A stretch of DNA of 64,000 nt from Azolla caroliniana. Taxonomy: Eukaryota; Plantae; Polypodiophyta. The DNA is taken from the NCBI GenBank assembly GCA_043228905.1, contig JBHGNT010000010.1, forward strand, positions 6,076,001 through 6,140,000. The letters are read 5' to 3'. This document shows positions 10,867 to 56,126 of this stretch, piece after piece. The notes beneath the pieces are model-generated. The model did not search any database. It worked only from the letters and a program-made list of their open reading frames with translations, and had not been told where the DNA came from. A program made the translations under genes and the position numbers. How positions within the stretch are numbered: position 1 is the first letter of the stretch; every line of letters starts with the position of its first letter.

Positions 10867-13644
<2,778 letters not shown>

Positions 13645-19438: not shown

Positions 19439-19474
19439 TTTCATGACATCGGCTGCTCTATAGGAACAAGTGCA

Positions 19475-20049
19475 TGTCACAGACACGACTGTCACGCTTC
19501 CAAACAGGCGGCCGTAATGGGGAGAATAATGTCACGGACATGACAACAGTCATGTCAAGATTCGAACTCTTCACCTCTTGTATATAATCAAATGTTATGA
19601 TCTAACCAACACATCCAAATACATAGTCATGTTATATATATCTTAGTATATTATTACTAGATTATCTATTTCAAGTTGTATGAGTTTTTAGAAAGTTTTA
19701 GAACTAGGAGGTTCTAGAATATTCTTCCAAATATTCTCGAGAATATTCTAATGCATATACTTCAACTCGCAGTATAAATACTTGTAACTTCCTTAGTCCC
19801 TTTCAAGGGATTAAACGCCAGTCATTGACACATCAATCTAGTATTCTCGTTTTGCCCCGTCTTCTCTCCTTGATTTACATCTCTCTTTATGCTCTTGTAT
19901 TGTTCCTAGCGTCCTAAGTTCCTCATCTCGTTGCTCCCAACTTCCCGAGTTTCTATCCCCATCATGTCGAGTTCCACGTTCGTAACCTTATCGATCGTAG
20001 CCTCGTCATCTGTGCTTTGTCATAGTCTAGGGTTGGTGTGTCTGTGACA
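19475..20049 (+). mobile_element. Solo LTR (575 bp) of a chromovirus-related Ty3/Gypsy family inserted in the LINE
   Basis: 12-bp terminal inverted repeat tgtcacagacac/gtgtctgtgaca; 5-bp TSD GTGCA (19470-19474, 20050-20054); TATA at 19773; shares tgtcaagattcgaactctt with the LTR at 50327 and aacgccagtc with the LTR at 32807. Confidence 0.9.
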
Positions 20050-20074
20050 GTGCACCCATAACATTATTGACTGA

Positions 20075-23000
20075 ATGAAAGTGGTAACATGGAATGTGAG
20101 AGGGGCACGTTCTCCTCATAAGAAGTATATATTATGGCAAACTTTATTAAGTAAAGAATGGGATATATTATGTGTAGTTGAGCATAAGTGTCATGAGTTA
20201 GCAGGATCCACAGTTCATTTGCATGGATATTCATCATTCTATGCAAGACATCTTAATAATCATTATTCAGGTGTGGTATTAATCGTGCGGGATAAGTATT
20301 TTCCTCAGGTGGTGCATAATGATCCTTATGGTTGGTTTTTGGTTCTAGAAATCACTTTTTTTGGCGAGGTTGTGTGGGTGGTTGGGATTTATGCCCCTAA
20401 CCAAGCCACTCAACGTATTGCATTACGGGGCTCACTTCGTCAAACCCTATGTGTGGGCCATCCAGGATTACTTATGGGTGATTTTAACATGTGTGTTGAT
20501 GCATCTCAATCTACGTCTGAACATTCGATCATGGATGATCCTGAGCAACTTGCTTGGGATTCATTGGCTATGGAAGTTTTGAAGTTGGATGTTTGGTCAT
20601 GGTTGCATGGGACTGATCCAGGTTTTACTTTCCAATCCGCTCAACATAGACAAACATGGAGTTGGTTAGATAGAATGTATGTGATGCACAATGATTCTTT
20701 TTTACCGACATCACTTCGTATGGCAATTTTACATGATGTAGGAACTTCAGATCACTTTCCTATTTGTTTGGAGATTTGTGGTCATGCAATTGACATGTAT
20801 AAATCCTTACTTGGAAAGCCTCCATTACGCTTTAACTCTTCTCTTTTGCTTCAACCTCACTTTGATTCTCTCATGGAGCAAATTTTGGTAATTTTTTCAC
20901 AAGAAGTGAATCGTAAAGGACTTAAAGCATGGGATATCACATTATGAAATATTAAGATCGTTCATCGTATGTATGGAGTAACTAATGCTCAACGAAGAAG
21001 AGGCGTTCTCCTAAAATTCTCACAAGTTCTCTCTAGGTGTAATGCATTATTGATATGTGAACCTTTAGATGAGGAGCTTTTGGATATCCAAAGTCAATTG
21101 CCTGTTATTATTTCTCAGTTGCAATGCCAAAGTTATCGTTATGCGAAGATGCGATAATTGAGGGATGGACTCATAGATAATCAATGTCAATCCCATTTGT
21201 TTTTCCAAGCATTACATCCTACTTATACTCGATCTAATGTGGTCAATGTGAAGCAAGGTGATGAATGGATAGTGGATCCTACTAAAATAATTGACATATG
21301 TGTTCATTACTCTAAGGAGTTGATTGGCCCACAATTGTTAATGACAAATGAGGTGAGTAGAGCACGTCATGAGTTTTATGATGTGGTTAGATGTATTGTG
21401 CATGACCTCATTAGTCATGAATTGGATGCAGATTTCACTGAGGATGAGGTGGACATAGTTTTAAGGCATCTTCCTAGTGGTAAGAGCCCTGGTTGGGATG
21501 GCTTGACAAATGAAGTTTTTAAGCGATATTCACACATTTTAAAGGGGCCCTTAACTTTGATGTTTCAACATTCTTGGGATTCTGGTCATATGCCTCAAGC
21601 TTGGAAGGTTGTTCTAATTAAATTAGTTCCTAAGGTGGTATCTCTAGAGTCATTTCATCAATGGAGACCTATTTCTTTGATGGGGGGGTTGTATAAGATA
21701 TTTACAAAGGTCTTGGCAAATAGATTACAAAAGTATTTGCCAAAGTTGATACATCCCGCCCAATATGGTTTTATTGCAGGTAGGAATATATTGCATAATG
21801 TGTTGAATGTTCAAATGGCCATGGATTATGCTCGAAACACTCATCAAGAATTGATTATGGTGCAATTAGATTTGGAGAAAGCTTATGATCATGTTAATTG
21901 GCCCTTTGTTTCTGGGTCAATGCATACAATGGGCTTTGGACCTTGTATGTCTCGCCTCATATTTTTTTTAGGACAAGATACGGTGTCTCGAGTCATGCTT
22001 AATGGAGGAGTTACATCAGATATTTCCCTTACAAGATCCGTTTGTCAAGGATGCCCTATTAGCCCGTTTTTGTTTGCTATTGTTACTCATCCCTTGTTAG
22101 TGATGCTATCAAGGCTTGCAACAAATGGTGATATTGTGGGTCTACACCTTCCGTATGGAGGGCAACTAGTTGCACAAGCTTTGGCTGATGATTCTTTCAT
22201 ATTTCTACAAGCCTCATGAGAGAATCTTGAGAAAGGGATGCTTGTATGGAACCAATTTGCATTGGTTTCCGGATTACATATTAATTGGAGGAAGTCTAGT
22301 CTCATATCATGTATTGAAAGGGATTTGGAATGTTTAGGATGGCAAGGATCCGTGGTGAAGAAAGGCTCTATTTTCGGCACTTGTGCTATCCATTAGGAAT
22401 GAATATTACAAATGGTCAATTGATTGAATGGATGTCTAGTAAGTTGAGGGACAAGTTCATGTATTGGAAATCACAATTTTGGCCATTTCATGTACGTTTG
22501 AAGGTTGTACAATGTATTATGGAACCTATGATATTATATTACTTGCCAATGTTGTCGTGGACAAAGAAGACTTTGCATTCTATTTTGAAACCTCTTAGAT
22601 ATTTGTTGTGGAAGAAAAGTGATAAGATGGGAATCACTTGGGTTGCATGGAATCATCTAGCAACTCCTAAGCGTTTGGGGGGAGTTGGAGTATTGAACTT
22701 ATCTAAGCATATGATGGCTCGTAGATTTTCATTATTACAAGACATGTGTTCAAACTCACAACCATGGATATCTATTGTTCAATATTTCATTGAGAACAAG
22801 GGTTTAACACATGGGAGGACAACAATTAAGGCTTCATGGTGGCAATTACTAAATGGATAAATTTCACTTAGGATTCCGGGCTCTACATGTGTTCAACACT
22901 TGGTTACCTCATGGCAAGAAGCACTCTTGTTATGTGTATGGAAACCATCATCTAGTAGAGAGCATTGTAATTCTTTGCAAAAAGAGTTACTTGTCTTCTC

Positions 23001-27978: not shown

Positions 27979-28658
27979 ATGACTGGTCGTTCCTCTGGTA
28001 TTGGTGGTGGTGAACTCGAAGATTACACCATGGAGCTCATTCAACGTATGTTTTTCTTCGCTAAGTTACTTATTTAAACATTTAATCTATACTGTGTACG
28101 CATGTGTATGTAAGTACACGCACTGGATGTGAAGTGAAATTCACATCAACAACAACAATTTGATGTATGTATTTATTTGTTTTCTAATGCCTTCCAACCC
28201 TTAACCATTCCTATCTTAGCATTAATTGGCATTCATGAAATCGTGTTGCGATTCAAAAACCTTTTTACAATCAGCTTTAATTGTTTCAAGATAACAGGCA
28301 TTGAAGAACTTCGAGAGAAAAGGGATGAGATCACAAAAATGCTTCAAAGTGAGGAAGAAGAAAAAACCAACATTCAAAAGGATCTTGTCCTTCTGACTAA
28401 GAGACTCGCAGAAGTTGATGACAGTTTGTCTCGAAAGTATGCATATATAAATGATTATGACAGAACAATTGAAGATGTCGAGGCTGCATATGGAAAAGTA
28501 TAATTATTTCCTTTGTTCTGTTAAGAGGTCCTTTGTTTCCTTGTATAGTTTGATTCGTATCTGAAATTTGATATAATTTTGTGCAGATCCTAGAAAGCTC
28601 TCAAGCATTATTACATGTTCTGAAGAGTGAAGCTATACAGATCGCCAATAAGAGATAA
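27979..28658 (+). CDS. SSNA1: SSNA1/NA14/DIP13 coiled-coil centriole/flagellar microtubule protein, 112 aa; exons 27979-28045, 28298-28497, 28587-28658
   Basis: Spliced product MTGRSSGIGGGELEDYTMELIQRIEELREKRDEI...EEEEKTNIQKDL...LSRK...YDRTIEDVEAAYGKILESSQALLHVLKSE. It matches the family pattern IEEL..KR.E...EE.EK..LQ...D.TI.E.EAAY.KILESSQ.LL.VLK.E. Confidence 0.88.
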
Positions 28659-32163: not shown

Positions 32164-32435
32164 TGGCAGGAACAGTACGCTCCCTATATGCAACGCTCGG
32201 CCACAACCGAGCTTAGAATCATCCACAGAAAAACGGGAAATAAATGCACGACACAAAGAAGAGAAGGGTACACAGGATGTTTACGTGGAAAACCCCAAAC
32301 TAGGGAAAAAACCATGGCAGCCCACACGCTGCAAACTATCACTATGTTAGAATGTACAACAGTGAGTTCACGGAGGCAACGACCTCGTGCTCACGATCTT
32401 CGCCACATGCGGCTGTTTCAACAGAGGCAACGACC

Positions 32436-32478
<43 letters not shown>

Positions 32479-33307
32479 ACACGGTTACACGCTCTCTCTC
32501 TTCTTGCACCAACAAGAATAACAACAACTGTCTAAAAGTTTGCCCTAAGTCATATTTATACTAATATGACTTTTCGGCTATTTACAAATATAGCCATGAT
32601 GGACTCTTAGAAACATTATTTACGAATATGTCGGTTCTCACCGGGTCTGCACTGCACCATCTGGCTCTCCGTAGCTGGGTACTCCTCATCCGGTTCTCAC
32701 CGGGTTTGCACTATCTAGCTCTCCGTAGCCGGGTACTCGTCATACGGTTTCCCATCCGGAGGGACCTGTCTCCCAACAAACTCCCCCTTCACTCCGGCAT
32801 GGGGTGTGTCATGGCAAGACTCGAACCCATGACTTTATGCTACATGGGTCGAGCTCTTACCATTAGATTAGGAATTGTATTTTGTAGGATATTATTTTTA
32901 TTTATACTTTATCATAGAAAATTGATGTATATTCCAGATCTGTCTGGAACATTCTAGAAGCTTCAAGATTATTCCTAAAAACACTATAAAAGGAGGCACA
33001 AGGCATTGTTTTGAACCAAATTGGTTCAACGCCAGTCTTAAGCCTCTTAGCCGCTTGTACTTATCTTTTCACATAATATATAGCTGCTGTCATCATCTCT
33101 CTCATTCTCGCTATCTCTCTCTCTCTCTCCTCTTCTCACTTCCTCTCTCGGGAATCTTACGCAGTCCCGTCCTCTTAGTACTAATAGTACTGCTGTTCTT
33201 AGTACTAATTCCATCTCTGTTTTAGTACTATTCCTGACAGTTTGAACCAATTTTTCCTCTAGCCTACTTGTCACTCTCCCTCATCCTCCTACCCTTTTCC
33301 CTATACT

Positions 33308-34465
33308 ATGGCTACTGTTAGCGCCCAAGAATACCAATCCGTTTTCTCCGAGCTACAGTGCCTAAAAGAAAAGTTTGTTGCCCTGGAACAAGAAAACCAA
33401 CGGCTGATAGGGGATCTGCAACAAATCGCTCTAGAAAAACAACAAACACAACAACAACATGGGGAGTTAGCGTTACGGGTACAACAACTCGAAGCAGCGT
33501 TGCAACAACAAGGATCCAGTCCCCAAGGATTTCATAAAGAGCCCAAGATTGGACTTCCTGTGAAATTTGATGGAACGCGTTCGCAATTCCGGGGATTCCT
33601 TAATCAGGTACGCTTAGTCATCCAGATGCATCCTTCCCGATATCCCACTGATGCATCTCGAGTCGGCCTAATAGGCACGCTACTTAGCGGCTCAGCCTTG
33701 GCATGGTTTGCTCCGCTTCTAGAAAAACAATCACCTTTACTTAATAACTTTGAAGATTTTATTGGTGAGTTTAAAGCCTGCTTTGGAGACACCGACAGCA
33801 TCAGGACGGCGATCAACAAGATCCGGCGATTGCGTCAAGGCGATCGTCCAGCCTCTGCCTACGCGGCGGATTTCCGCCTACTTGCTTCAGATATACCCTG
33901 GGATGATCAAGCACTAATGGAGCAGTTTCGCTATGGCTTGCGAAACAATGTCAAAGATCTACTTCTAACTTTCCCCGAAGAACCAAAGTCTCTTACGGAG
34001 GCAATCAGTCGAGCAGTTCGATGTGACAACCGCCTTTTTGAACGGCGTTCAGAACGTCAATTACAGATACCACGCTCTAGGCCAGAGCCCACTTACGCCG
34101 CAGTCGCGGCTAAACCGTTTGCACGAGACACACCTCAAGCAAATACTTCGACACCGATGGAGATCGATACCATGCGTCGACGTGGCCCGTTATCGGAAGA
34201 AGAAAAGCAACGACGACGTGCCAATCGATTATGTCTTTATTGCGGTGGACCAGGACATATCGCCATCAATTGTCCCCATAGGCCAAGAAGACAGGTAAAT
34301 CAAATCGTCGCCTGTACTAAACCCGAGTCAATTCTTCCCTTTGGAGTGTCTGATAGTATTAATAGTACTAATAGAGTGTCAGATAGTATTCATAGTACTA
34401 ATAGCCCAAGTATCTCAAATAAATTTGAAATCCTTAGTCAATTAGATGAAGAGTTAAACGATTGA
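33308..34465 (+). CDS. Gag of chromovirus A (coiled coil, capsid, CCHC knuckle), intact
   Basis: PVKFDGTRSQFRGF, LRQGDRPASAYAADF, TPMEID and CLYCGGPGHIAINC. Confidence 0.93.
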   Translation: MATVSAQEYQSVFSELQCLKEKFVALEQENQRLIGDLQQIALEKQQTQQQHGELALRVQQLEAALQQQGSSPQGFHKEPKIGLPVKFDGTRSQFRGFLNQVRLVIQMHPSRYPTDASRVGLIGTLLSGSALAWFAPLLEKQSPLLNNFEDFIGEFKACFGDTDSIRTAINKIRRLRQGDRPASAYAADFRLLASDIPWDDQALMEQFRYGLRNNVKDLLLTFPEEPKSLTEAISRAVRCDNRLFERRSERQLQIPRSRPEPTYAAVAAKPFARDTPQANTSTPMEIDTMRRRGPLSEEEKQRRRANRLCLYCGGPGHIAINCPHRPRRQVNQIVACTKPESILPFGVSDSINSTNRVSDSIHSTNSPSISNKFEILSQLDEELND

Positions 34466-37400
34466 GTCCAGCCAAAATAGGAGCCATTTGGTTGGACAGC
34501 AGCCCTAGATCTGTACAGCCCATTAGTGGTTCCATTCCTTCCAAGCAAGTTAGCAATGTGTTCCTAGCCCAAGTCATTGTTAGTACTAAAAGTACTCCCC
34601 CAGTACCCGTCCTAGCACTTTTAGATTCCGGAGCTAATTCCTGTTTCATGGATCGAAATTTTGCCCAAGCTTCTCAGATATCCTTAAGAAAACTTCCTTG
34701 TCCCGCATCTGTAGTGGTCATTGATGGTCGTCCCATTGCTTCCGGGAATATTGTAGAAGAATCAGAACCCATTCAAGTTGTCCTAGGTAGTTTTGTGTGT
34801 ATAATATCATTTAATATAATTAGTAGTCCAGAGCATCCCATTGTCCTAGGATTACCTTGGCTTGAATTACATAATCCAGCCATAGAATGGAGAACAAGAG
34901 AAGTCCGATATCGACCACCCCAAGAATCAACTCACCGAGTTTCGACCATTTCACTCCATCAACTACGCGAAGAAGGACCCAAGGAGGCAATGTTCCTATT
35001 TGCCATATCAGTACATCCTTCTAGCACTATTAAGAAGGACTCCTCAATACAACTTCCGGCAAAATATCATCCTTATGCCGATGTATTTGACAAGGTAAAA
35101 GCCGGTACCCTTCCTCATCACCGTCCCTATGACTGTCCCATCGATTTACAACCAGGAACTGAGCCACCATGGGGACCAATTTACAACTTGTCACCCACCG
35201 AGTTAGAAGTCCTTCGAGCCTACATAGAGGAGAACTTGGCAAGCGGGTTCATCCGTCATTCGAAATCTCCGGCCGGTGCACCCATCTTCTTTGTCAAGAA
35301 GAAAGATGGCTCACTTCGTCTTGTCGTTGATTACCGCGGATTGAATAAAGTCACCATCCGGAATAGGTATGCACTTCCTCTTATATCAAGTCTTTTAGAG
35401 CGAGTTAATGGTGCCAAGTTTTTTACTAAAATCGACCTACGAGGAGCGTATAATCTCGTGCGGATCCGACCGGGAGATGAGTGGAAGACCGCTTTTCGCA
35501 CGCGGTATGGGCATTTCGAGTATACTGTTATGCCGTTTGGCCTAACCAATGCACCCGCAGTCTTCCAACACATGGCAAATGATATATTCAGAGACCTCTT
35601 GGATATCTGTTTGATCATTTATCTGGATGATCTGTTGATTTATTCGAAGACCCAGGAAGAGCACGATTCTCATGTACTATTAGTACTAAAGCGACTCCGC
35701 GAGAATGGTCTTTATGCCAAGCTAGAGAAATGTAGCTTTGACTGCAAGCAAGTGGAATTTCTAGGCTACGTCATCTCCTCAAAGGGCATCGCCATGGATC
35801 CAACTAAAATCCAAACTGTACTAGAGTGGCAAATTCCACGGTCGGTACGAGATGTACAATGTTTTCTAGGCTTTGCTAACTTCTACCGTAAGTTTATACA
35901 GGATTACTCGAAGATTATTTTACCTCTCACACAACTTACGAAGAAGGGCCAAGCATTTCTTTGGTCCATCGAAGCAGATATGGCTTTTCGGCATCTTAAG
36001 AAAGCCTTTACATCAGCACCGATTCTAGCTCATGTGGATACAAGCAAACCATTCATCATGGAGGCCGACGCATCAGATTTCGCCCTCGGTAGCATCCTTT
36101 CTCAACAAGGCGATAAAGAAGAGTTGCATCCGGTGGCTTTCCATTCGCGCAAATTCAATGTCGCAGAAATCAACTACGAAATACATGACAAGGAGTTATT
36201 AGCCATCGTGGATTCATTTGTACAATGGCGGCATTTCTTAGAGGGCTCTCCACATCAGGTCATTGTCTTTAGCGATCATAAAAATCTTGCTTATTTTCAG
36301 AACGCTCGCGTACTAAATCGACGGCAAGCTTGGTGGGCGCAATTCCTCACGCGTTTCAACTTCGAAATCACGTATCGACCGGGGAAGCAGCAAGGAAAAG
36401 CAGATGCGCTATCACGGCGTTCATATCTTGCACCTCGTCCTGGTGACGCAACATTTGATAATCAAAAGCAAGTAATCTTGGGACCAAAACGATTGCACAC
36501 GACGCGGATTTTTCACACCCCGATGGATTCACGGATTACCGATGACATACGTGCAACCTTGAAGACGGATAGTTTTGCTCAAGACATCCTGGCGCACATT
36601 GATACTTCTCGGGCATCCTGTTCTCAGTCTCAACAACCAGGTATCGACTACCGACAATTCGAATATCATGATGGTTTGTTATTCTTTAAAAAGCGCGTAT
36701 ATGTCCCCGATTGCTCCTGTCGCCTTCAAATCGTCCAACATTGTCACGACACCCATACGGCGGGACATTTCGGTAGTACCAAGACGTTGGAGTTAGTGCA
36801 GCGATCTTTTTGGTGGCCCCACATGCGCCGTTTTGTCGACGACTACGTTCGGACCTGTGATGCTTGCTGCCGAGCAAAGATGCCACGACACCATCCATAT
36901 GGCTTGTTGGAACCTTTACCAATTCCAAGTAAGCCATGGCAGTCTATTTGTCTTGATTTTATTACAGATATGCCGGTCTCGAAGGGGTTCGATGCTATCC
37001 TAACTGTCGTCGATCGATATACGAAGATGGCACATTTTGTGCCATGTACTAAAGCCATCACTAGCGAGGAAACCGCCACTCTTGTTATGCGTGAGGTATT
37101 TCGGCATCATGGCCTACCAGACAGTATTATCAGTGACCGAGGCCCGCAATTTGTCTCCAAATTTTGGTAGCATCTCTTCAGGATGCTCAAGGTCTCCTGC
37201 AACCTCTCCTCCGGCTACCATCCGCAAACTGACGGACAGGCGGAACGAACAAACCAAACGTTGGAGCAATATCTCCGGTGTTTCCTGAATTATCAACAGG
37301 ACGATTGGGCCGAGATTCTCCACTTTGCGGAGTTTGCGTATAATAATGCTATTCACTCCTCGACTCGGGTCTCCCCATTTCTCGCTTATACCGGTTTCCA

Positions 37401-38034
37401 TCCTCGCTGGTCGGTGATCGACACTCCGGAGCTACCTACCAACCCTCGTGCCGAGGACCATTTGGAGAGGCTACGCAAGATCCAGATGGATCTCTCTACT
37501 CACCTTCGTCATGCTCAACACACACAGAAGACTTATGCGGATTATCATCGGATTCCCTCCTCTTTTGCCATCGGAGATCGAGTATGGCTCTTACGTCGTC
37601 ACATCAAGACTACTCGACCGTGCGACAAGTTGGATTATCGACGACTCGGTCCTTTCCGTATTACGGGGAAGATTAATGATGTCACCTTCCGCCTGGATCT
37701 CCCTCCGCAGCTTCAGATACATCCGGTTTTCCATTGTTCTCTTCTTGAACCTTATAAAGCAAACACCATTCCCGATCGTGTGACACCACCGCCGCCCCCG
37801 CTGGAGTTGGACGCCGGCCCGGAGTATGAAGTTGCTTCCATCCTCGATTCCAAACTTGTTCGCAACAAACTTTATTACTTGGTCGATTGGCTCGGTTATA
37901 GTCCGAGCGAACGTACTTGGGAACCCGTCGAGAATGTTGCCAATGCACAAGATCTTCTTGCTGATTTCCACCGAAAGTATCCGGACAAACCCAGTCCGCA
38001 GTTAGCGCCGACTCGTTCCACTCGTCGTCTTTAA
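34453..38034 (+). pseudogene. Pol of chromovirus A (protease, RT, RNase H, integrase, chromodomain) in the -1 frame; one nonsense codon at 37168-37170
   Basis: LLDSGA, YLDD, EADASDFA, HHCC/DFIT/SDRG/GQAER integrase and EYEVASILDS...YLVDWLGY...TWEP chromodomain. Confidence 0.93.
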
Positions 38035-38481
38035 GGGGGAGATAGTGTCATGGCAAGACTCGAACCCATGACTTTATGCTACATGGGTCGAGCTCTTACC
38101 ATTAGATTAGGAATTGTATTTTGTAGGATATTATTTTCATTTATACTTTATCATAGAAAATTGATGTATATTCCAGATCTGTCTGGAACATTCTAGAAGC
38201 TTCAAGATTATTCCTAAAAACACTATAAAAGGAGGCACAAGGCATTGTTTTGAACCAAATTGGTTCAACGCCAGTCTTAAGCCTCTTAGCCGCTTGTACT
38301 TATCTTTTCACATAATATATAGCTGCTGTCATCATCTCTCTCATTCTCGCTATCTCTCTCTCTCTCCTCTTCTCACTTCCTCTCTCGGGAATCTTACGCA
38401 GTCCCGTCCTCTTAGTACTAATAGTACTGCTGTTCTTAGTACTAATTCCATCTCTGTTTTAGTACTATTCCTGACAGGGTG

Positions 38482-41400
38482 TCTTACTAGTCCAATCCTC
38501 TTCCGGCATGCATCCAGCTTGTCGGGTATCAGCACTTTGGTCAGCATATTTGACCCGTTCTCGGCCGTGTGGATCTTCGTCAGCGCGAACTCCTAGACAT
38601 CTACTCTTTCCCGGATCCAGTGATACCTTCGCTGGATATGCTTCGTCTGGGAATGGTAGGCCACATTCTTAGCAATGTGGATGTCACTTTGACTCTCGCA
38701 ATAGAGTCGGTATTCATCTTGCCGGATACCGAGCTCTCCGATGAAGTCCTTCATCCATAATATTTCCTTGCCGGCTTCCACAACCGCCATGTACTCCGCC
38801 TCCGTGGTTGACAATGCAACTGTCTTCTGCAGCCTCGACTGCCACGAAACAGCTCCCCCTGCATATGTCATTACATACCCGGATGTAGACCGGCTGGTAT
38901 CCACATCAGCCGACATGTCCGAATCGGTGAAACCATCAAGTTGAGGTTTTCCGGAGCCGAATCGGAGACACATATTTGAAGTGCCCTTCAAATACCGGAG
39001 TATCCATTTGACCGCATTCCAATGCTCCTTGCCGGGATTGCTCATAAACCGGCTCACCACTCCGACTACGTATCCTATATCCAGTCAGGTACACACCATT
39101 GCATACATCAAGCTCCCGACGGCAGAGGCATATGGAATCTTCATCATATCCGCCTTCTCTGCTTTCGTCTTCGGGCTTTGCTTACCGGATAGCCTACAGT
39201 TTGCCGGAAGTGTCGATCCGAGCGGTTTTGCATCTGACATGTTGAACCGGTGAAGCATCTTTGTCACATACTTCTCCTGTGACAGCCACAATTGCTTCAT
39301 TGGCCGGTTCCGGATGATATGCATCCTCAACATCTGTCTTGCCGGACCCAAGTCTTTCATTGAGAAGGTCCAGTTGAGAGCCTTCTTCAGCATCCGTATT
39401 TCGACTTGGTCCCGTCCGACGATCAACATGTCATCCACGTACAGAAGGAGTATCAGGAAGTCTCCTCCTTCGAACTTCTTCACAAACACGCAGTGATCGG
39501 CCTGCGTCTTGTGGTACCGTTGATCGGTCATGAAGGAGTCGAACTTCCGGTACCATTGTCGGGGAGCCTGCTTCAGTCCGTACAGGCTCTTCTTCAACCG
39601 CCATACTAGGTGCTCCTTCCCTTTCTCCACGAATCCTTCTAGTTGCTGCATGTAGATCTCCTCTTCGAGGTCGCCGTGAAGGAATGTCGTCTTCACGTTC
39701 AACTGTTCTACCTCGAGGTTCATGCTTGCCGCTATACTCAGCACCGTCTGGATGGAGGTCATCTTTACTACCGGGGCAAATATCTCGTCAAAGTCCACGC
39801 TACCATTGTCGGGGAGCCTGCTTCAGTCCGTACAGGCTCTTCTTCAACCGCCATACCAGGTGCTCCTTCCCTTTCTCCACGAATCCTTCCGGTTGCTGCA
39901 TGTAGATCTCCTCTTCGAGGTCGCCGTGAAGGAATGTCGTCTTCACGTTCAGCTGTTCTACCTCTAGGTTCATGCTTGCCGCTATACTCAGCACCATCCG
40001 GATGGAGGTCATCTTTACTACCGGGGCAAATATCTTGTCAAAGTCCACGCCCTTTTTCTGCTGGAACCCCTTCACCACGATCCTGGCTTTGTATCTCGGG
40101 GGTTTCCGGCATCTCCCGGTTTCAACTTGTACACCCACTTGTTTCGGAGTGCCTGCTTTCCTTTCGGCAACTCCACCAATTCGTACATATGGTTCTCATG
40201 CAGGGAATCCATCTCATCCTGCATGGCACTTAACCATTTGCGGTTGTGGGTGTCATCCTTCGCTTCTTCGAAGCTTTCCGGCTCCCCCTCATCAGTCAAC
40301 AGAACATGCTCTGCATCCGGAAATCTCTGGGACGCCCTTCTCTCTCTGAGAGGATATCTCCGTCTTCGGGCTTCGGTAACCGGCTCCTCCATTTGCTCTT
40401 CATCCGAATCCGATTCGGGGTCTTGGCCGATTCCGGTTTCAACTTCCTCCACTTCTTCTTCAGCCTGTTCGGTATCCTCACCGTAACCGGCTGGTCCCTC
40501 GAGTGCTAACCGGTCTCTTGCCGGTTGGGTCTGCTCATCGTAGAGTCGATCCTTACCGGTCGACTCGGAGTTCATTATCTTCTTCTCCGACTCCCAGTCG
40601 ACGAGCGTCTTGTCCTCCATGAAGATAATATCTCGACTCCGGAATACCTTCTTGTCGACCGGGTCCCACACTCAGTAGCCGAACTCATCGTCGCCGTAAC
40701 CGAGGAATATGCATGGCCGGGTCTTTGGATCTAACTTTCCTCTCTGGTCCTTAGCTACATGCACGTACGCGAGACACCCGAACACCTTCAGATGCCAGTA
40801 GGATACTTCCTTACCGATCCACACTCTCTGTGGTGTGTCTCCGTCCAAGGGTACTGAGGGTGATCTATTTATCACATATGTCGCCGTCGACAATGCCTCA
40901 GCCCAAAACTTCTTGGGTAGTTTTGCATGCGCTAGCATACTCTGGACCCTCTCCATTATGGTCCGGTTCATCCTCTCGGTCAGTCCGTTTAGTTCCGACG
41001 TCTTTGGCACAGTAAATTCGAGCCGGATTCCCTTCGAGCGACAGTACTCTGCGAACTGCCCCCGGTATTCTCCTCCGTTATCTGCTCGAACTGCCTTCAG
41101 CTTCCGGCCAGTTTCTCTTTCCATTCTCGCGTGGAGCTCTTTGAAGACGGATAGCACCTGATCCTTCGTCTTCAACGGTGTGGCCCACAGCTTCTGGCTG
41201 TGGTCATCTATGAACGTCACGAAGTACTGCGCTCGGGCATGTGACTTCGTGTCTACTTGACACACATCCGTATGCACCAACTCCAGTGGTGCATTACGTC
41301 TCATCGGTGGCCTTGGTCGGAAGGAGGTCCGGTTTTGCTTACCGGCCAGGCAATCAGTGCACTTCTCCAAGTGCACGTTCTTCACTGGAATGAGGTTGTC

Positions 41401-42759
41401 GTCTGCAAGCCTCTTCATCCCCTTCTCGCTCATATGACACAGCCTCTTGTGCCATAGCTCACCGGCAGTGTCGGATGCCACGTTCACTTCTTCCGGACAT
41501 AACCGGGCATTCATCAGGTACAATGTGTTGACCTTCCGGGCCCGAGCCACAATCAGGCTCCCTTTGTTGAACTTCATGACACCGTTCCGGATGCTACCCG
41601 TGTAGCCTTCATCATCTAGCCGGCCGGCTGATATCAGGTTCAGATGAACCTCCAGAACGTGTCAGACATCCTTCAACAACAACTTGCATCCGGTTGGTGT
41701 TGACAGCCACATGTCTCCTATGCCGACAATTCGGCATGTACCTTCATTCCCCATCCGGACACAGCTGTGATCACCGGCTGAGTAGGATGAGAAGCATTTC
41801 CGGTCTGGGGTAAGGTGGAACGACGCTCCGGAGTCGACCACCCAGGTCATCTCGTCGCCGGCAAGGTTTATCTCACTCTCCTCGGTGATGAGCATCAACT
41901 CTTCTTCACTTGCCGTGATTGCCGTCGTCCCCTTCTGGTCCGTTCCCCTCCGGTCTTTACCGTTCCGGTCCGGTATCCGCTTCGAATCGGTACCGTCGGT
42001 TTCCTTGTCTTTTTGGAAATGCCGACAGTTCTTTTGGAAGTGTCCTGGCTTGCCGCAATAGAAGCAAGTAGGCCTCCCCCTTGACTTTGACCGTGTCCCT
42101 GACTTTTCCTGGTTCTGGGGAGTACGGTTTCTTTGTCTTCCACGTTCCAATTTGGTAAGGAGCGCTTTGGGGTCGGAGCTCGTATCTTTATCTTTCCGAC
42201 GCGCCTCCTCATCTAGCAAGCTTGACTTTACTCTTGCTAGGGATAACCGTTTCCCTTCCGGCCCGGCGTTGCCCAAAGTGACAACCAACGTCTCCCAGCT
42301 ATCCGGGAGGGAACCGAGTAGGAGTAGCGCTAGTACCTCGTCGGCGAGAGGTACTTCCAATGATGTTGCCTGGTGTATCAGCCTTTGGAAGGCATTCATG
42401 TGCTCCGCCATGCTGGAGCCATCTTGGTACCAGAGTCTTACTAGCTTCCGGAATACTGAAACCTGATTAACAACATTTTTGTTTTGAAACATTATGCCGA
42501 TCTTCTCCCAGAGCTCATGAGCCTTGCTCTCTTCATTGAAGTTGTTGTATAGACTCATGTCGATGAAGCACCGAATGTACGCCGTTGTCTTCATGTGCAT
42601 CACCTCCCATATTGCGGCGTCGATTTTGTCCAGTCTCTTGTCCCCGAACTGGACCGGCAGCCAGAGGTCTTTAACCACGAGCATGTCCCTCATCTTCGAC
42701 TTCCACACCGAATAGTTGGAGCCGGTGAGCTTGAACATGCCTCCCAACGAGTCGTCCAT
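38482..42759 (-). pseudogene. Copia gag-pol polyprotein with stops, frameshifts and an internal duplication
   Basis: CFYCGKPGHFQKNC knuckle, WVVDSGASFH protease, LWHKRLCH/VHTDVC/ADNGGEY integrase, KSLYGLKQAPRQW/YVDD RT and SRSTSGY/STTEAEY RNase H. Confidence 0.93.
39551..40050. repeat. 250-bp tandem duplication inside the Copia RT region
   Basis: taccattgtcgggg...aagtccacgc at 39551-39800 and 39801-40050, with several substitutions between copies. Confidence 0.93.
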
Positions 42760-43062
42760 TTTCTGTGTCGTTTCGCTCTGATACCACTTGACAGGAACTA
42801 TACGCTCCCTATACGCAACGCTCGGCCACAACCGAGCTTAGAATCATCCACAGAAAAACGGGAAATAAATGCACGACACAAAGAAGAGAAGGGTACACAG
42901 GATGTTTACGTGGAAAACCCCAAACTAGGGAAAAAACCACGGCAGCCCACAGGCTGCAAACTATCACTATGTTAGAATGTACAACAGTGAGTTCACGGAG
43001 GCAACGACCTCATGCTCACGATCTTCGCCACAGGCGGCGGTTTCAACAGAGGTAGCGACCTT

Positions 43063-43096
<34 letters not shown>

Positions 43097-43495
43097 CACG
43101 GTTACGCTCTCTCTCTCTTCTTGCACCAACAAGAATAACAACAACTGTCTAAAAGTTTGCCCTAAGTCATATTTATACTAATATGACTTTTCGGCTATTT
43201 ACAAATATAGCCATGATGGACTCTTAGAAACATATTTACGAATATGTCTCTTCATCCGGTTCTCACCGGGTCTGCACCATCCGGCTCTCCGTAGCCGGGT
43301 ACTCCTCATCCGGTTTTCATCGGGCCTGCACCATCCGGCTCTCCGTAGCCGGGTACTCCTCATTCGGGTCTCACCGGGTCTGCACCATCCGGCCCTCTGT
43401 AGTCGGGTACTCCTCATACGGTTTCGGCCTCGGCCGAGTTTGTTCATCAACACTGTTCTTCTCCCTTCCCATCCGGAGGGACTTGTCTCCCAACA

Positions 43496-44360: not shown

Positions 44361-44988
44361 AACCTAACACACGCTTGTTAGTTGGTTTGAGTCCATCGAT
44401 CGGCTCAGTTAGTTGACCGATATTTCTTGAACCGTCATCAGCAATCCTATTGGATGATTCGCCCTTGCAATAGGATTTCGGCAATGTAGAATAGTCTTCC
44501 CCTTCTTCGGGATTGATTGACAGAGGTGTTGATGCCTTGGCTGGCTCGACTCTATGTGTTGGTCGATACGTTAGTCGATTTGGGTGAGTTGGTCGATTCG
44601 ACTCTGTGTGTTTCAACTTTGCCATTTTAAGCTTTGCCTTGGTTAGACGATTTGGCTCTTTCCGATCGTTATCCTTTGGTGTTAATAATTAGGTAATTAA
44701 GCAAGGGTTAATTAGTACCTAATTATGTGATTAAGTTAAGCGGAAGATTAAATGATATGTGTGTGAGAGGAAGAGAGAGAGCAGTGCACTTATGAGCAAC
44801 AAAGATGGGGGATGATTAACTCTATATTAAATTAGCATCATCAAATACAAAAATACCCACAATGAGGTATATATACAACTCATGTGCAACGGTGCACATG
44901 TGTGAGTAGAACATAGGTACAAGGATGTGCGTCGTATATATTCACTATACTTGGTAGTGGAGGATCTTGATCGTATCCCCACTTACGT

Positions 44989-45700
44989 TGTTGTGGAGAT
45001 TCACAGCCATAGTGAGAAAACCGGGGCTGCTAGGAATATTGGCGGGGTGCGGCGTGAGCACTCACCCTTGTATAAACGTGTAGGATAATGGAGGTGTCTT
45101 TATGGGACCAAATAAGAGTTAAGTTGGGATAGAGAATCCCATGTAATACGGGATTTATCCCACATTGCTAGGCACCTCCCTCCTTGTGCTATAAAAGGAA
45201 GGGAGGGTCCCTTGTAAAAGGGTTGCCCAGTTTGAGTTAGGGGGGTATACCACTAATTGGTCTAAAGTATGGTAGCTTTTCTCTTCTTTCTTTCTTTCTT
45301 CCTTCCTTCCTTACTTTCTTCAGGGTTTTATCTAGGTCTTCTACTTTGTCATCATGTGGTTTGAGTCTTCGTGTCTGTTTAGGGTTTAGTCTAGTTAAGA
45401 GCTTGTATGTCCTAAGGGGTTTTCGCTTCTGCTTTGTCTTCTGTGCAAGACCCCGCTCGGTGCGATGAGCTTGAGAGCTCCCCGATCGGCGGCTTGGCAC
45501 CAGACTGCTATTGTAACCTAACTTCCCTTAGTCTGGCTCGAAGTCAGAGTTGTATCTTGCTCTTATCCATATATAGTGAAGTTCTATACATCTGTGTTTG
45601 TGTCTGCGTCTTCAGAGTTTCTTCTTTCCTTTACTGTACATAAGTAGCATGTGTTGAGCCGGTGTTGCACGTATGCTCTCTCTCTCTCCCTCTCTCATGT
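44989..45700 (+). mobile_element. Diverged LTR-like sequence, family X copy 1 (right edge uncertain)
   Basis: Starts tgttgtggag; shares catagtgagaaa, aatcccatgt, ctataaaagg and gtgcaagaccc blocks with the copies at 50017 and 57135. Confidence 0.65.
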
Positions 45701-50016: not shown

Positions 50017-50729
50017 TGTCGTGAAGTTTCCAGCACATAGTGAGAAACCGAGAGATATCGGAAGAATCGGCGGAGTGCACCATGTGCACTTACCCTTGTA
50101 AAACGTGTGAATAGTAGGAGTAAAATCGGGACAGAGAATCCCATGTGAGTTGGGATTTATCCCACATTGTAACGCATCCCTCTCCTTGTTCTATAAAAGG
50201 AAGGGATGGTCCCTTGGAGAGGGGTTGCCCATTTTGAGTTAGAAGGGTATACGACGTAGGTCTAGGGTTTGGTAGTTTTCTTGGTCTTCATCTCGTTCTT
50301 ATTCTTAGGGTTTCTACTTTGGTCTTTGTCAAGATTCGAACTCTTGACACGACCATGTTATAATCTACTATTATGAGTTAACCAAGATATCTAGTACTAG
50401 TTATGTATGTAATTGGTCCTTATTATTTTGCTAGCATCATGTGCTTAGTTGCTCCCTTGTAGTATTTACACTTGGCACATGCATGCATACCTACATGCTC
50501 TATTGTAGATTCACATGTGTGCAACAAGTATGCATGCCATGTAGTATAAATAGAGGAGTTCACCTTGAAGGAATTCAAGGTGAACAACACCAGTTATGGA
50601 GTCTTTCCTTTAGTACTATCTTCTTTCTTGTCCATTTGGTTATCTTCTTGGTTGTCTCTTGAGTTTATGATCCGTGACAGTTTGTTCACCTTCCCATCCT
50701 CATAGCTCTCCCTCTCATAAGCCATAGCT

Positions 50730-51746
50730 ATGTCCGACTCAACTAGTGAGTTAGGCCAAATAATGGTAGCCTTACGACAACTACAGCTTGAAAATGAAGC
50801 TCTTCGAAATTCTTTACAAGAACTTCAAGTCGGTACCTCCCTATCCTCACAACCCCCGAACCCTAGTCTCCCACAACAACCTAACCTAGAGCCCGATCTT
50901 CTACCAACATCTAGCCTAGCTTCGTCACAGTTTCTTGAGCCTAAGGTTAGCCTCCCAGAAAAATTTGATGGAACGAGGTCGCGTTTCCGAGGGTTCATCA
51001 ACCAAGTTCGACTTATCATTCGGCTACAACCTCAACGTTATGGAGATGGTCTTCGACAAGTCGGCCTTGTGGGCACCCTTCTCTCCGGTCCGGCCCAAGC
51101 TTGGTTTGCACCATTGGTAGAAACCTCATCACCTTTATTGGAGGACTTTCCCGCCTTCCTCGCCGAGTTAGAGGCCACATTTGGAGAGACGGACCGATGA
51201 CGTACAACTCTTAACAAGATTTATGCACTCGAACAAGGTTCACGTGCAACTTCGGTCTATGCTTCCGAATTTCGACAACTAGCATGCAACGTCAATTGGG
51301 ATGATCAAGCTTTAGCTGATCACTTTCGCCGCGGTCTTCGAAGCAATGTCAAGAATCTTCTCTTAAACTTTCCGGAGCCCACCTCGTTATCCCAAGCGAT
51401 TTCACAAGCAGTCCATTGTGACAATCGTCTTTTCGAATTTCGCCAAGAAGAGCACCGGACTTGGGTTCCACCTCATTCACTTCCATGCCACGCCCCGGTC
51501 ATACAACCCCAAGCATCCTCACACTCGCCTACTTCGACAGATGCTCCTGTCCCCATGGAAATTGATCAAGCCCGATTTCGGCCATTGACTGATGTTGAAC
51601 GACAATTTCGGCGGGTTAATGGCTTGTGCATGTATTGTGGCGCCTCCGGTCATGTCGTTCGCCATTGTCCTAGGAGTACTCACCCACAATTCCATCGAGC
51701 TAACGGACCCCAACATCCGGAAAACGACATCGTTCGGTTGCAGTAG
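50730..51746 (+). pseudogene. Gag of chromovirus B with an in-frame TGA at 51198-51200
   Basis: PEKFDGTRSRFRGF, PMEID and CMYCGASGHVVRHC; clearly homologous to the gag at 33308. Confidence 0.92.
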
Positions 51747-54700
51747 GGGCCATGCAACTGGACATCTCCTGTCGCCCACATTCTCTTGGTTACATTGCCG
51801 GACCATCAAGCAATTTCACATTGGAGGTATGGCTTTCGTTTAACTCTAGTTCCATTCAGTCTGTTGCTTTACTTGATTCTGGGGCATCTTCTTGCTTCAT
51901 CGACGTCGCGTTTGCCCAAGCACATGGCGTACCTGTCGTTGGCCTCTCAAAACCCATTCCAGTTGAAGCCATCGACGGGTGCGTCCTCTCGTCAGGTGCA
52001 ATTACTCAAGCTACAATCCCATTAGGGCTTCGGGTGGGCTCACACCAAGAGGAGCTCACCTTTTACCTCATCGCATCTCCTCGACATCCGATCGTCTTAG
52101 GACTAACGTGGTTGGAGGCGCACAATCCAATAGTGGATTGGTGCAACCGCTCGATCACATTTAGCAAGCGAAGATGCTCGTGCAAAAGTATGAAGGTAAA
52201 TTCAGTTTCCTATCCTTCGGAGACGGTCGACTCCGAATTGACTACCCCATCATCCGTCCAGGATGGGTTTGTTTGTGGCGCCATTTCTAACACACTCCAT
52301 GTTATTCCCGAAAAATACCAACACTTCTCCGACGTATTTGAAAAATGTAATGCTGATCGGTTGCCTGAACACCGGCTCTACGACTGTCCGATTGATCTTC
52401 AAGGAGGTGCGTGTCCACCCTTTGGTCCTCTATATGCGTTGTCTGCACCAGAGTTGAAGGCCCTTCGTGTGTATCTCGATGAGAACCTCGAGAAAGGCTT
52501 TATTCAACCTTCTAAGTCACCAGCCGGGGCCCCCATTTTATTTGTGAAGAAGAAGGACGGCTCTCTACGCTTATGCGTCGACTACCGAGGTCTCAACAAA
52601 CTCACTGTGCGCAACCGCTATCCGCTACCTCTGATCCCTGAACTCCTTGATCGGCTCCGAGTTGCACGTGTCTTCTCCAAAGTTGATCTGCGTGGAGCGT
52701 ACAATCTAGTACGCATCAAGCCGGGGGATGAATGGAAAACCGCATTTCGAACACGGTATGGGTATTTCGAATACAAGGTAATGCCTTTTGGTCTTACTAA
52801 CGCTCCCGCAGTTTTTCAACATATGATGAACGATATTTTCCGGGAATATCTTGATCTTTTTGTTGTCATTTACCTCGATGATATTCTCATTTTCTCGCCA
52901 AACATGGAGGAGCACACTCGCCAAGTCCGATTAGTTCTTGCCAAACTTCGCGAGCATGGCCTTTATGCCAAAGGCGAGAAATGCGAGTTCGACCGTACCT
53001 CGATCGAATTTCTGGGCTACATCATCTCGCCCACTGGCATCACCATGGATATGAAGAAGGTCTCTGTCATTCAGGCGTGGGCGACTCCAAGGCGACTTAA
53101 AGATGTGCAATCCTTCCTCGGCTTCGCGAATTTTTACCGTCGCTTCATCAAGGGGTTTTCCACCCTAGCACAACCTCTTATCGCTCTCACCCATAAACGC
53201 ACTCCATTTTTATGGACCTCGGAGGCACAAAATGTGTTCGACTCACTCAAACACGCATTCATCACTGCCCCGGTGCTGCTACATGCCGACCCCACAAAAC
53301 CCTTCCAAGTTGAAACCGATGCCTCTGACTTTGCCATTGGCGCCATCTTATCCCAAGCAGACGACAACAACCTAATGCACCCAGTGGCTTACTATTCCCG
53401 AAAATTTACGGCATCCGAAATCAATTATCCCATTTACGACAAGGAGCTTGCTGCTATCATTGCTGCCTTTGAAGAATGGCGACCCTACTTGTCTGGCGCA
53501 CAACATCGTGTCCAGGTAGTGACTGATCATAAAAATTTAGTTTATTTTTCCACCACTCGTACTTTGAATCGAAGGCAGGCCCGTTGGTCGACATTTCTCG
53601 TCGACTACGATTTTGAGATCGTATTTCGACCTGGTGGCCAACATGGGAAGGCTGATGCCCTTTCTCGCCGAGCTGACCTTGCACTCCGCCCTGGGGATGC
53701 TGCTTATGCTCAACAATCTAGACGTTTGTTGAAACCCGACCAATTGCATCTGTTTGCCACTTGTATGTTGCAGGATGATTCTTTACTCCAACAAATCACT
53801 GATGCATCCAAGACCGATGCGTTCGCCAACGAGATTCGAGATAGTCTGCAAAACCCCTCCAAGGCGACCAAAAGGAAGGATCTTGACACCTTCACCATAC
53901 AAGAGGGTTTGTTGTTCCGAGATCATCTCTTATACGTCCCAGAGGGCCCATGTCGCACCCGGGTGTTGCGGGAATGCCACGATGACCCACTTGCAGGTCA
54001 TTTCGGGGTCGCGAAAACCCTCGAGCTAATCTCTCGAGGGTATTGGTGGCCACAACCATGGAAGCTGGTCAAAGAATACATAAAGAGTTGTGAGGTTTGT
54101 GCTCGCTCCAAAGCCATTCATCATCGGCCATACGGCTTACTACAGCCGCTTCCATGTCCTCGTCGTCCTTGGGCCTCTATCTCTATGGACCTGATAACTG
54201 ATCTACCCTTGGTCAATAGCTATGACTCGGTGTTGGTCGTTGTCGATCGGTTTACGAAGATGGCTCACTTCACTCCATGCTCCAAAACCATTTCCGGAGA
54301 AGGAATGGTGCATCTCCTACTCAACAATGTAGTACGCTTGCATGGACTCCCCGATGATGTCATCTCGGATCGCGGACCCCAGTTTGTCTCTCACTTCTGG
54401 CAGCGCCTGCTACAAACTTTAGGCATCTCTGTCAAGTTGTCCTCCGCTTATCACCCCCAAACTGACGGGCAAACGGAGCGTGTCAACCAAATCCTTGAGT
54501 AGTATCTTCGGTGCTCGGTTAGTTACCAACAAGATGATTGGGTCAACTTACTTTCGCTCGCGGAATTCGCCTACAATAATTCTCTCCATGCATCGACTGG
54601 CGTCACTCCCTTCTTTGCCAACTACGGTTTACATCCTCGCTTCAACATTTCCCTTCCTACCACTTCCGTGAACCCTTCAGCGGAGGATCGTGCCCGCATT

Positions 54701-55300
54701 TTGGAAGAAGTACATCATGATTTATCCTTGGAGCTTAGTCTTGCTAGTGAACGATACAAGAAGCAGGCTGATCGCCATCGATCTTCCACTCCACACTTTG
54801 TCGTTGGCGACATGGTCTGGTTGTTACGTCGACACATCTCTACTACTCGTCCATGTGCGAAACTTGATTACAAGAAGTTGGGACCATTCCGTATCATCGA
54901 GTGCATCAATCCCGTCGCCTTCCGGCTCGCCCTTCCATCCCACTTCCGAATTCACGATGTTTTTCATGTCTCCCTCCTCGAACCCCATTATGCTTCACAA
55001 CTCCCAGGACGTCAAGCCCCACCACCACCACCTGTGCAATTGACGACAGGGGAGGAATACGAGGTCGACCAAATCCTTGACTTGCGTTGGCACCGTCGAC
55101 ACTTGCAATACCTCGTCCTATGGAGGGGTTACCCCATGTATGAGGCCACATGGGAACCATCGGCAAATTTACAAAATGCCCCAGAGGTCGTCCAAGATTT
55201 TCATCACCGATATCCCCACAAACCAACGGCCGATTTGGGAAGGAGGCGTAAGAGGGGGGATAATGTCAAGATTCGAACTCTTGACACGACCATGTTATAA
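51719..55300 (+). pseudogene. Pol of chromovirus B (protease, RT, RNase H, integrase, chromodomain) in the -1 frame; in-frame TAG at 54500-54502
   Basis: LLDSGA, YLDD, ETDASDFA, SDRG/GQTER and EYEVDQILD...YLVLWRGY...TWEP. Confidence 0.93.
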
Positions 55301-56126
55301 TCTACTATTATGAGTTAACCAAGATATCTAGTACTAGTTATGTATGTAATTGGTCCTTATTATTTTGCTAGCATCATGTGCATAGTTGCTCCCTTGTAGT
55401 ATTTACACTTGGCACATGCATGCATACCTACATGCTCTATTGTAGATTCACATGCGTGCAACAAGTATGCATGCCATGTAGTATAAATAGAGGAGTTCAC
55501 CTTGAAGGAATTCAAGGTGAACAAAACCAGTTATGGAGTCTTTCCTTTAGTACTATCTTCTTTCTTGTCCATTTGGTTATCTTCTTGGTTGTCTCTTGAG
55601 TTTATGATCCGTGACAGTCTTCACCCTATTCCGTTTTAGGGTTTCGTCTTGGTTTTCTTCTGCTTCCTCTTCCCCTTCATGTTTGTTTAGGGCTTGCTTC
55701 TGCTCGGTCTCCTGTGCAAGACCCCGCTCAAGGCGACAAGCCCGTGAGCTCCCCGATCGGCGGCTTGGCAGCAGACTGATGTTGTAACCTACCTTCGTCT
55801 AGCCTGAAGCCAGGGTTGTATCTTTTCCTGTAATATATATATATATTCGTGTTTGTTGTGCATATCGGTGTATTTGGTGGAGTCGGGAGAAGAGCCCCTT
55901 GTTTCTTGTGTATAAGAGTCGGTGTAGCACGCATGCTCTCTCTCTCTTCTCTCTCTCTCTCTCTCTCGTGTTTGGTTGCTTCCGGGACGCGTCTTCTCGG
56001 CATCCCTTCCTCTCTCGTCCGACACCCCCGTGGTCCCACCCCTTCTACACACACGTGCGAACTGTGTGCGAATGTCATGGAAGGTGACAAACTCCCCTGT
56101 GTCGAGGCCAGAATACCATCACGCAG

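What the first reader, a model, noticed from the sequence alone, without database searches (positions are those of the whole stretch)
33011..33253. Chromovirus A lacks a tRNA PBS and appears to self-prime (Tf1-type)
Seen: just after the 5' LTR, where a PBS belongs, the sequence ttgaaccaattt (33242-33253) has no TGG tRNA-complementary start. It is the exact reverse complement of aaattggttcaa (33018-33029), which lies about 33 nt downstream of the LTR TATA box (32985), at the expected transcript start. Known: S. pombe Tf1 primes reverse transcription with the first 11 nt of its own mRNA. Inference: this plant element uses the same tRNA-independent priming, unlike the two Copia elements here, which have tRNA-iMet PBSs.
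Basis: partly seen in the sequence, partly recalled or inferred. Interest (0 to 1): 0.85.

Follow-up and report, generated by a model that had tools for sequence, protein, structure and literature searches.

The report
Self-priming Tcn1 retrotransposon in a fern
A young jumping gene in what is likely a fern genome has, in place of a tRNA docking site, 12 bases that pair exactly with a stretch of its own end repeat, so it likely starts copying itself with its own RNA, as shown for yeast Tf1 and already predicted for this family in mosses and clubmosses.

Summary
Observation confirmed: 33242-33253, two bases after the 5' LTR, is the exact reverse complement of 33018-33029, which starts 33 nt after a TATA box (0 of 20000 LTR shuffles reach 12 nt). 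The element is a young chromovirus of the plant Tcn1 clade (Tf1/sushi group); its RT core is about 83% identical, by hand count, to Selaginella SM-Tcn1. Self-priming is likely but not new: a 2019 survey predicted it for 83% of 1500 plant Tcn1 elements, and this scan noted the geometry in other genomes. The pairing is kept with different letters in a second chromovirus in the window, in SM-Tcn1 (4 of 4 changes compensated) and in 16 of 59 related loci. Start site and primer are unmapped; one common primer variant has no visible partner change. Two smaller points were not found in print: the host is likely a fern, where a PCR survey found no Tcn1; and the end of U3 can fold back on the primer in 5 of 5 close relatives from my calls (weakly in this element, degenerate in SM-Tcn1) but in at most 1 of 14 distant ones.

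The parts
32802..32806 (+). left target-site duplication GGGTG (right copy 38477-38481); element A sits inside the 3' end of a minus-strand Copia element
   Evidence: Copia domains
32807..33239 (+). 5' LTR of element A (433 nt, TG...CA)
   Evidence: one substitution and one 2-nt indel against the 3' LTR
32985..32991 (+). TATA box TATAAAA
33011..33017 (+). U3-side arm TTGAACC, complementary to primer bases 33023-33029 (same letters as the start of the PBS)
33018..33029 (+). predicted first 12 nt of the RNA, the putative self-primer
   Evidence: exact complement of 33242-33253; start site inferred from TATA distance, not mapped
33030..33037 (+). R motif CGCCAGTC after the primer; CACCAGT in B and L002, CACCAGTC in SM-Tcn1
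33200..33230 (+). predicted U5 stem-loop (33200-33208 with 33222-33230) just upstream of the PBS
   Evidence: mean pair probability 0.91; seven listed variants fall in the loop 33211-33221, none in 33201-33208 or 33222-33229
33242..33253 (+). primer-binding site, complementary to the element's own R start, no TGG
33308..34465 (+). gag ORF (385 aa), overlapping pol in another frame
34450..38034 (+). pol (protease, RT, RNase H, integrase, chromodomain), interrupted by one stop codon in the integrase (37168-37170)
37825..37977 (+). chromodomain with the three aromatic residues Y, W, Y in place
   Evidence: Pfam Chromo E 3e-14; sequence; cage positions as described in PMC3350952
38033..38042 (+). 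polypurine tract
38046..38476 (+). 3' LTR; holds the second copy of arm and primer at 38250-38268
50327..55616 (+). chromovirus B, a second Tcn1-like family (RT core 73% identical to A), target duplication GTCTT, LTRs 353 nt with 3 differences
50558..50587 (+). B: U3 arm 50558-50569, loop, and putative primer AAGGTGAACAA 50577-50587, 32 nt after the TATA box at 50545
50682..50692 (+). B: primer-binding site TTGTTCACCTT, exact complement of 50577-50587
   Evidence: 2 of 20000 shuffles reach 11 nt

Best explanation
Element A is a young chromodomain Ty3/gypsy retrotransposon of the Tcn1 clade in a likely fern genome whose primer site is the exact complement of 12 bases of its own LTR, and it likely primes reverse transcription with its own RNA rather than a tRNA. 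Shown: the anatomy, the complementarity, the clade, and the same pairing with other letters in relatives. Inferred: transcription starts at or very near 33018; bases 1-12 fold back onto the PBS 224 nt downstream beside a U5 stem-loop; the element's RNase H cuts after base 12, as in Tf1 after base 11; the freed 3' end primes minus-strand DNA. This copy has a stop in its integrase, so it would need that protein in trans. More speculative: the last bases of U3 pair with the primer sequence wherever U3 is in the RNA, which would hide the 3'-LTR copy of the primer and disarm transcripts that start upstream.
For: Exact 12-nt match at the canonical PBS position, 0 of 20000 shuffles. Folding of the predicted leader puts the primer:PBS helix at mean probability 0.91; 0 of 200 shuffles fold as well. 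Covariation: B has another 11-nt pair; L002 shares B's pair and L082 has a third; the published SM-Tcn1 sequence has a 15-nt match whose last 12 nt differ from A's primer at 4 positions, all 4 matched in its PBS (read by eye). One mechanical rule (ACA, 1-2 nt, at least 10 nt complementary to a site 29-36 nt after a TATA-like box) is met by 16 of 59 related loci with enough upstream DNA and by 0 of 59 control stretches inside pol (rule fixed). Clade: RT core 134 of 162 identical to SM-Tcn1 (hand count) against 57-65% for frog and fish, 60% Ustilago, 52% Tanacetum; A and B fall in a 99-supported group with vertebrate and fungal elements that leaves out the one seed-plant element and three Closterium elements (quick tree). 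PMC6317226 predicts self-priming for 83% of 1500 Tcn1 elements.
Against: Start site, cleavage and primer are unmapped. In four runs 22-43% of the summed contig depth reads C at 33022, inside the primer, and no partner change is listed at 33249; depth there falls from about 217000 (33230) to about 7000 (33254) in run X5 and three contig joints leave the stretch at 33248, so a hidden partner change is possible but unshown. Tf1 needs three duplexes (PMC10085805); the one downstream of the PBS is not predicted in A. 43 of 59 loci failed the rule (some have 8-9 nt matches or no TATA pattern; others were not examined one by one). In L051 the helix is not favoured by folding (0.02). Host tRNAs could not be searched.
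Confidence: 0.88

Rival explanations
1. The complementarity is real and conserved but serves RNA structure only (packaging, dimerisation, translation), or transcription starts upstream so that the U3 arm ties up the R start, and priming uses something else.
For: With a start 40 nt upstream the primer:PBS helix is predicted at 0.00-0.07 in all 4 elements tested; one Tf1 duplex is not predicted; the common 33022 variant has no visible compensation.
Against: The partner starts 31-35 nt after TATA in A, B and the loci that pass, and the PBS side starts 1-2 nt after the LTR end, the geometry of Tf1; no alternative primer site follows the LTR.
Confidence: 0.06
2. The PBS binds an internal fragment of a host or organellar tRNA, as Osser, Bryco and Bianca copia elements use half tRNAs; GGTTCAA resembles a tRNA T-arm (recalled).
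For: Half-tRNA priming exists in plants (PMC6317226). No host tRNA set could be checked: no genome is held and the window has 0 tRNA genes.
Against: Close relatives have unrelated PBS letters that each match their own LTR; a tRNA primer gives no reason for that. Half-tRNA priming was found only in copia lineages in that survey. Rfam finds nothing over 32750-33350, a weak test for 12 nt.
Confidence: 0.04
3. Chance complementarity in an A+T-rich LTR.
For: 10-nt matches arise in 41 of 20000 shuffles, and a loose scan of relatives gave many irrelevant 10-nt hits.
Against: 12 nt in 0 of 20000; repeated in B (2 of 20000) and in relatives at the same distance from TATA; 0 of 59 control stretches.
Confidence: 0.01

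Closest known systems
Plant Tcn1 clade of chromoviruses (SM-Tcn1 of Selaginella moellendorffii; REXdb chromovirus|Tcn1; PMC2864245, PMC6317226)
   Same: RT core about 83% identical to SM-Tcn1 (hand count); overlapping gag and pol; 5-bp target duplication; 5.67 kb (clade range 5466-9444); chromodomain with aromatic cage; LTR end, GT spacer, PBS starting TTG, primer ending CAA and the C(A/G)CCAGTC motif after it are shared with SM-Tcn1.
   Different: Host is likely a fern, whereas those papers report Tcn1 only from mosses and lycophytes. A has a perfect 7-nt U3 arm against the primer; SM-Tcn1 has at most a gapped, degenerate one (by eye).
Tf1 and Tf2 of Schizosaccharomyces pombe, Tj1, and the Tf1/sushi group
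   Same: PBS complementary to the predicted first 11-12 nt of the RNA, 2 nt after the LTR; RNase H domain present; a predicted U5 stem beside the PBS; chromodomain integrase.
   Different: Mechanism proven for Tf1, only inferred here; two overlapping ORFs rather than one; the third 'pretzel' duplex is not predicted in A; no U3 arm is mentioned for Tf1 in the passages read.
TAR lineage of plant Ty1/copia (Houba, Osr-1)
   Same: Predicted self-priming in plants (89% of 203).
   Different: Copia superfamily; separate origin.

Membership tests
Ty3/gypsy chromovirus | LTRs, order PR-RT-RH-INT, chromodomain at the integrase end | tested here: met
Plant Tcn1 clade | RT closest to named Tcn1 elements | tested here: met
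   134 of 162 residues identical to SM-Tcn1 (hand count), above every named non-Tcn1 protein tested (52-65%); SM-Tcn1 itself was not placed in the tree
Plant Tcn1 clade | Groups with fungal and vertebrate Tf1/sushi elements, not with seed-plant chromoviruses | tested here: met
   quick tree, support 99; only one seed-plant row and no named Galadriel, Reina, Tekay or CRM; the only named gag hits among the best 120 are from the fungus Cetraspora
Plant Tcn1 clade | Group I chromodomain with aromatic cage; 5-bp TSD; overlapping gag and pol; size 5.5-9.4 kb | tested here: met
   clade values
Plant Tcn1 clade | Host range as published: mosses and lycophytes | tested here: not met
   one host exon groups with three ferns at support 99; a described range, not a defining sequence feature
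Tf1-type self-primed elements | No tRNA PBS; PBS complementary to an LTR stretch, at least 10 nt, starting 0-5 nt after the LTR | tested here: met
   criterion from PMC6317226
Tf1-type self-primed elements | Pairing kept through compensatory change | tested here: met
   between families. Within the family inconclusive
Tf1-type self-primed elements | Three-duplex 'pretzel' around the PBS | tested here: inconclusive
   central duplex and an upstream U5 stem predicted, downstream duplex not; a 6-bp helix at the LTR end is broken by a majority variant at 33195
Tf1-type self-primed elements | The complementary stretch is the actual 5' end of the RNA | not testable with these tools
   only DNA contigs were laid; position inferred from TATA distance
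Tf1-type self-primed elements | RNase H cleavage releases the primer, found on minus-strand DNA | not testable with these tools
   needs bench work
tRNA-primed plant chromoviruses (Galadriel/Galahad, Reina, Tekay, CRM, Chlamyvir) | PBS starting TGG, complementary to a tRNA 3' end | tested here: not met

The most novel reading that the evidence does not exclude
Land-plant Tcn1 elements carry an 'anti-primer' arm at the end of U3. Transcription starts inside or just past this hairpin, so only correctly started RNAs have a free primer, while the copy in the 3' LTR and read-through transcripts from upstream promoters are folded shut. The arm follows the primer through three different sequences (A; B, L001, L002; L082, with one G-U pair), and the clade has also invaded and amplified in ferns.
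Probability: 0.3. Interest if true: 0.6.

Novelty: new member of a known kind. Interest (0 to 1): 0.3.

Why it matters
The main claim adds one more predicted case to a known mechanism in a known clade. Its value is as a test system: I found no experimental test of self-priming in any plant, and this family is young and abundant. A fern host would widen the range of a clade thought to have entered mosses and lycophytes from fungi. If the U3 arm is functional, it would answer a small open design question, how a self-priming element keeps the identical R copy at its 3' end and read-through RNAs from acting as primers, and give a start-site switch built into the RNA; start-site choice already gates Tf2 mobility by another route (PMC5341516).

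Tried and rejected
No whole genome is held, so no family-wide copy alignment and no host tRNA search. No RNA holder was listed among 24 runs: no evidence either way on expression or start site. Laying contigs could not link primer and PBS variants, which lie 224 nt apart, and cannot vouch for the U3 arm: the common variant at 33008 seen is missing, so rows near that edge are unreliable; one search shows 40 of 110 rows. The metagenome scan covered 2 of 64 parts and returned mostly distant (45-64%) elements; further scans of viral contigs with A's gag, B's RT and P0039 gave no new locus; a DNA pattern gave one unrelated match in a 52-kb viral contig, taken as chance. One search was a loose scan with index errors for loci lacking upstream DNA; counts come only. 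By folding energy A's own U3 hairpin is not special (-8.6 kcal/mol, 95 of 500 shuffles); by exact stem length it is mildly so (7 bp, 58 of 5000). The careful tree did not finish; the quick one is used. SM-Tcn1 was compared by eye only. Cluster look-ups gave no organism names for the closest element proteins. Rfam: 0 matches. Earlier scan notes on this genome or on Tcn1 and ferns: none. Supplements not readable and possibly relevant: Additional files 1 and 3 of PMC6317226 (per-element primers and sequences) and the .doc files of PMC2864245.

Full report
Observation. Element A runs from 32807 to 38476 between GGGTG duplications, with LTRs that differ by one substitution and one 2-nt indel. It carries gag, then an overlapping pol with protease, RT, RNase H, integrase and chromodomain, broken by one stop in the integrase. 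Two bases after the 5' LTR, 33242-33253 is the exact reverse complement of 33018-33029, with no extension either way and no TGG. The partner starts 33 nt after TATAAAA, at a C|A step. None of 20000 dinucleotide shuffles of the LTR offers a 12-nt complement. The two Copia elements have the ordinary TGGTATCAGAGC site.

What the element is. Over a 162-residue RT core A is identical to SM-Tcn1 of Selaginella at 134 positions (hand count of the supplement text), but 57-65% to frog and fish elements, 60% to Ustilago, 54% to Closterium and 52% to Tanacetum. In a quick tree of 67 RT-RNase H rows (32 of 98 loci, 33 of 120 proteins, chosen by hand to span the range) A and B lie in a group of 62 with support 99 that holds the vertebrate and fungal rows and leaves out the seed-plant and Closterium rows. 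The chromodomain keeps its three aromatic residues; size, 5-bp duplication and overlapping ORFs match the Tcn1 line of Additional file 5 of PMC6317226. A is a Tcn1-clade member of the Tf1/sushi group. The host is likely a fern: one SSNA1-like exon groups with Adiantum, Ceratopteris and Pteridium at support 99 (70 columns, one gene). The family is abundant in four coded organisms.

Covariation. Chromovirus B in the same window (RT core 73% identical) has the pair AAGGTGAACAA / TTGTTCACCTT, 32 nt after TATA and 2 nt after the LTR (2 of 20000 shuffles). L002 has the same pair, L082 a third one. In SM-Tcn1 the 12 nt that start 33 nt after TATA differ from A's primer at 4 positions and its PBS matches all 4 (by eye). 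Of 98 related loci, 59 had enough DNA upstream of RT; 16 met one mechanical rule and 0 of 59 control stretches did (rule fixed; several of the 16 are close kin, with about ten distinct primers). Against: 43 of 59 did not meet it. Within A's family the test is open: of 22 variant rows over 32985-33285 one lies in the primer (33022, 22-43% of depth in four runs) and none in the PBS, where cover collapses; three joints leaving at 33248 hint at, but do not show, a partner change.

How it most likely works. From a start at 33018 the primer:PBS helix is the dominant fold (mean probability 0.91; z -4.4 against 200 shuffles), next to a 9-bp U5 stem whose loop collects the family's variants. By analogy with Tf1, where bases 1-11 pair with the PBS and RNase H cuts between 11 and 12 (PMC7175516, passages), RNase H would free bases 1-12 as primer. 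Tf1 needs three duplexes (PMC10085805, passages); the one downstream of the PBS is not predicted in A. Start site, cut and primer are inferred, not shown. Confidence 0.88; rivals are a purely structural role (0.06), a tRNA fragment (0.04) and chance (0.01).

The U3 arm. 33011-33017 is complementary to primer bases 6-12. B, L001 and L002 have 9 primer bases paired in hairpins of 10-12 bp (0, 0 and 1 of 5000 shuffles), L082 a 13-bp hairpin with one G-U pair (0 of 500 by energy, 412 of 5000 by Watson-Crick run alone), A only 7 (58 of 5000; 95 of 500 by energy). L001 was added by hand and lacks its PBS. These five are all the elements from my calls with an RT core 73% or more identical to A and an LTR in hand, and they represent three independent primer sequences. 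Of 14 distant elements that meet the rule, only L091 has a partial arm. SM-Tcn1, closer to A than any of these, has at best a gapped remnant (by eye), which counts against necessity. In the 3' LTR context the arm is predicted to hold 7 of 12 (A) and 9 of 11 (B) primer bases at probability 0.93 or more. Moving the start 40 nt upstream drops the primer:PBS helix to 0.00-0.07 in 4 of 4; at 30 nt upstream it drops in 3 of 4, but also in 4 of 14 elements without an arm, so this measure is noisy. A gate on the primer is my preferred reading; a promoter palindrome, a polyadenylation hairpin or a snap-back by-product of reverse transcription are not excluded.

What is known. PMC6317226 (passages; Additional file 5) already predicts self-priming for most plant Tcn1 elements and reports the clade only in mosses and clubmosses. 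PMC2864245 (passages, section 7, supplement S3) found Tcn1 in no fern or horsetail among 26 by PCR. Also seen as passages: PMC3350952, PMC4600332, PMC3601003, PMC5341516, and, with nothing relevant, PMC8282616, PMC13469084, PMC12786077. The primary Tf1, sushi and Cryptococcus papers cited there were not read and could describe the U3 arm. Seven searches showed no report of Tcn1 in ferns, of a U3 arm, or of a bench test in plants; the library lacks most subscription papers, and fern genome annotations may list Tcn1 in tables I did not see. The scan has noted self-priming geometry in eight other findings on other genomes; these are unchecked notes and were not used as support.

Verdict. Real, correctly interpreted, and a new member of a known kind. 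Interest 0.3, carried by the likely fern host, the covarying U3 arm and the lack of any plant experiment.

Noticed in passing
SM-Tcn1, supplement S3 of PMC2864245, positions 392-406 and 499-513: The paper says it found no evidence of tRNA priming or self-priming in SM-Tcn1, yet its own sequence shows a perfect 15-nt complement between the LTR, about 30 nt after the TATA box, and the stretch 2 nt after the LTR. Read by eye.
   Followed up: partly
window 50327-55616: Chromovirus B, a second young Tcn1-like family with the same self-priming anatomy and a stronger (12-bp) U3/R hairpin; gag and integrase are interrupted by stops.
   Followed up: yes
window 33022: Common T>C variant (22-43% of contig depth in four runs) inside the putative primer with no partner change listed at 33249; unexplained.
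   Followed up: partly
window 32164-43370 (-): Copia element with tRNA-iMet-type PBS into whose 3' end element A inserted, close to its polypurine tract; its LTR region holds a 54-nt tandem repeat (3.3 copies at 43248-43423) and its pol a 250-nt direct duplication (39548-40047).
   Followed up: partly
window 57846-63417 (+): Second Copia element with tRNA-iMet-type PBS at 58164.
   Followed up: partly
window 17957-22860 (+): Broken L1-like LINE (DUF4283, endonuclease, RT).
   Followed up: no
window 10767-10866 and 10868-11270 (+): A 14-3-3 gene exon begins right after the window's only assembly gap (100 N).
   Followed up: no
window 28291-28500 (+): Exon of an SSNA1-like gene, used to place the host: 83-84% identical to three ferns, 77-79% to bryophytes, on a long branch of its own within the fern group.
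   Followed up: yes
window 44983-45558, 50011-50281 with 55696-55824, 57135-57375: Three diverged copies (70-81%) of another repeat; B inserted into one of them. Not classified.
   Followed up: no
L082-L088: Eukaryotic chromovirus contigs sit inside bacterial genome records (for example L082 in a cyanobacterial MAG): likely contamination of those bins.
   Followed up: no
L004, L006, L010, L014, L059: A group of relatives whose PBS has only an 8-nt complement, lying about 88 nt before the LTR end with no TATA box upstream; their priming mode is unclear.
   Followed up: no
L091: A distant element with a partial U3 arm (6 Watson-Crick pairs, 8 with G-U), absent from its sister L096.
   Followed up: partly
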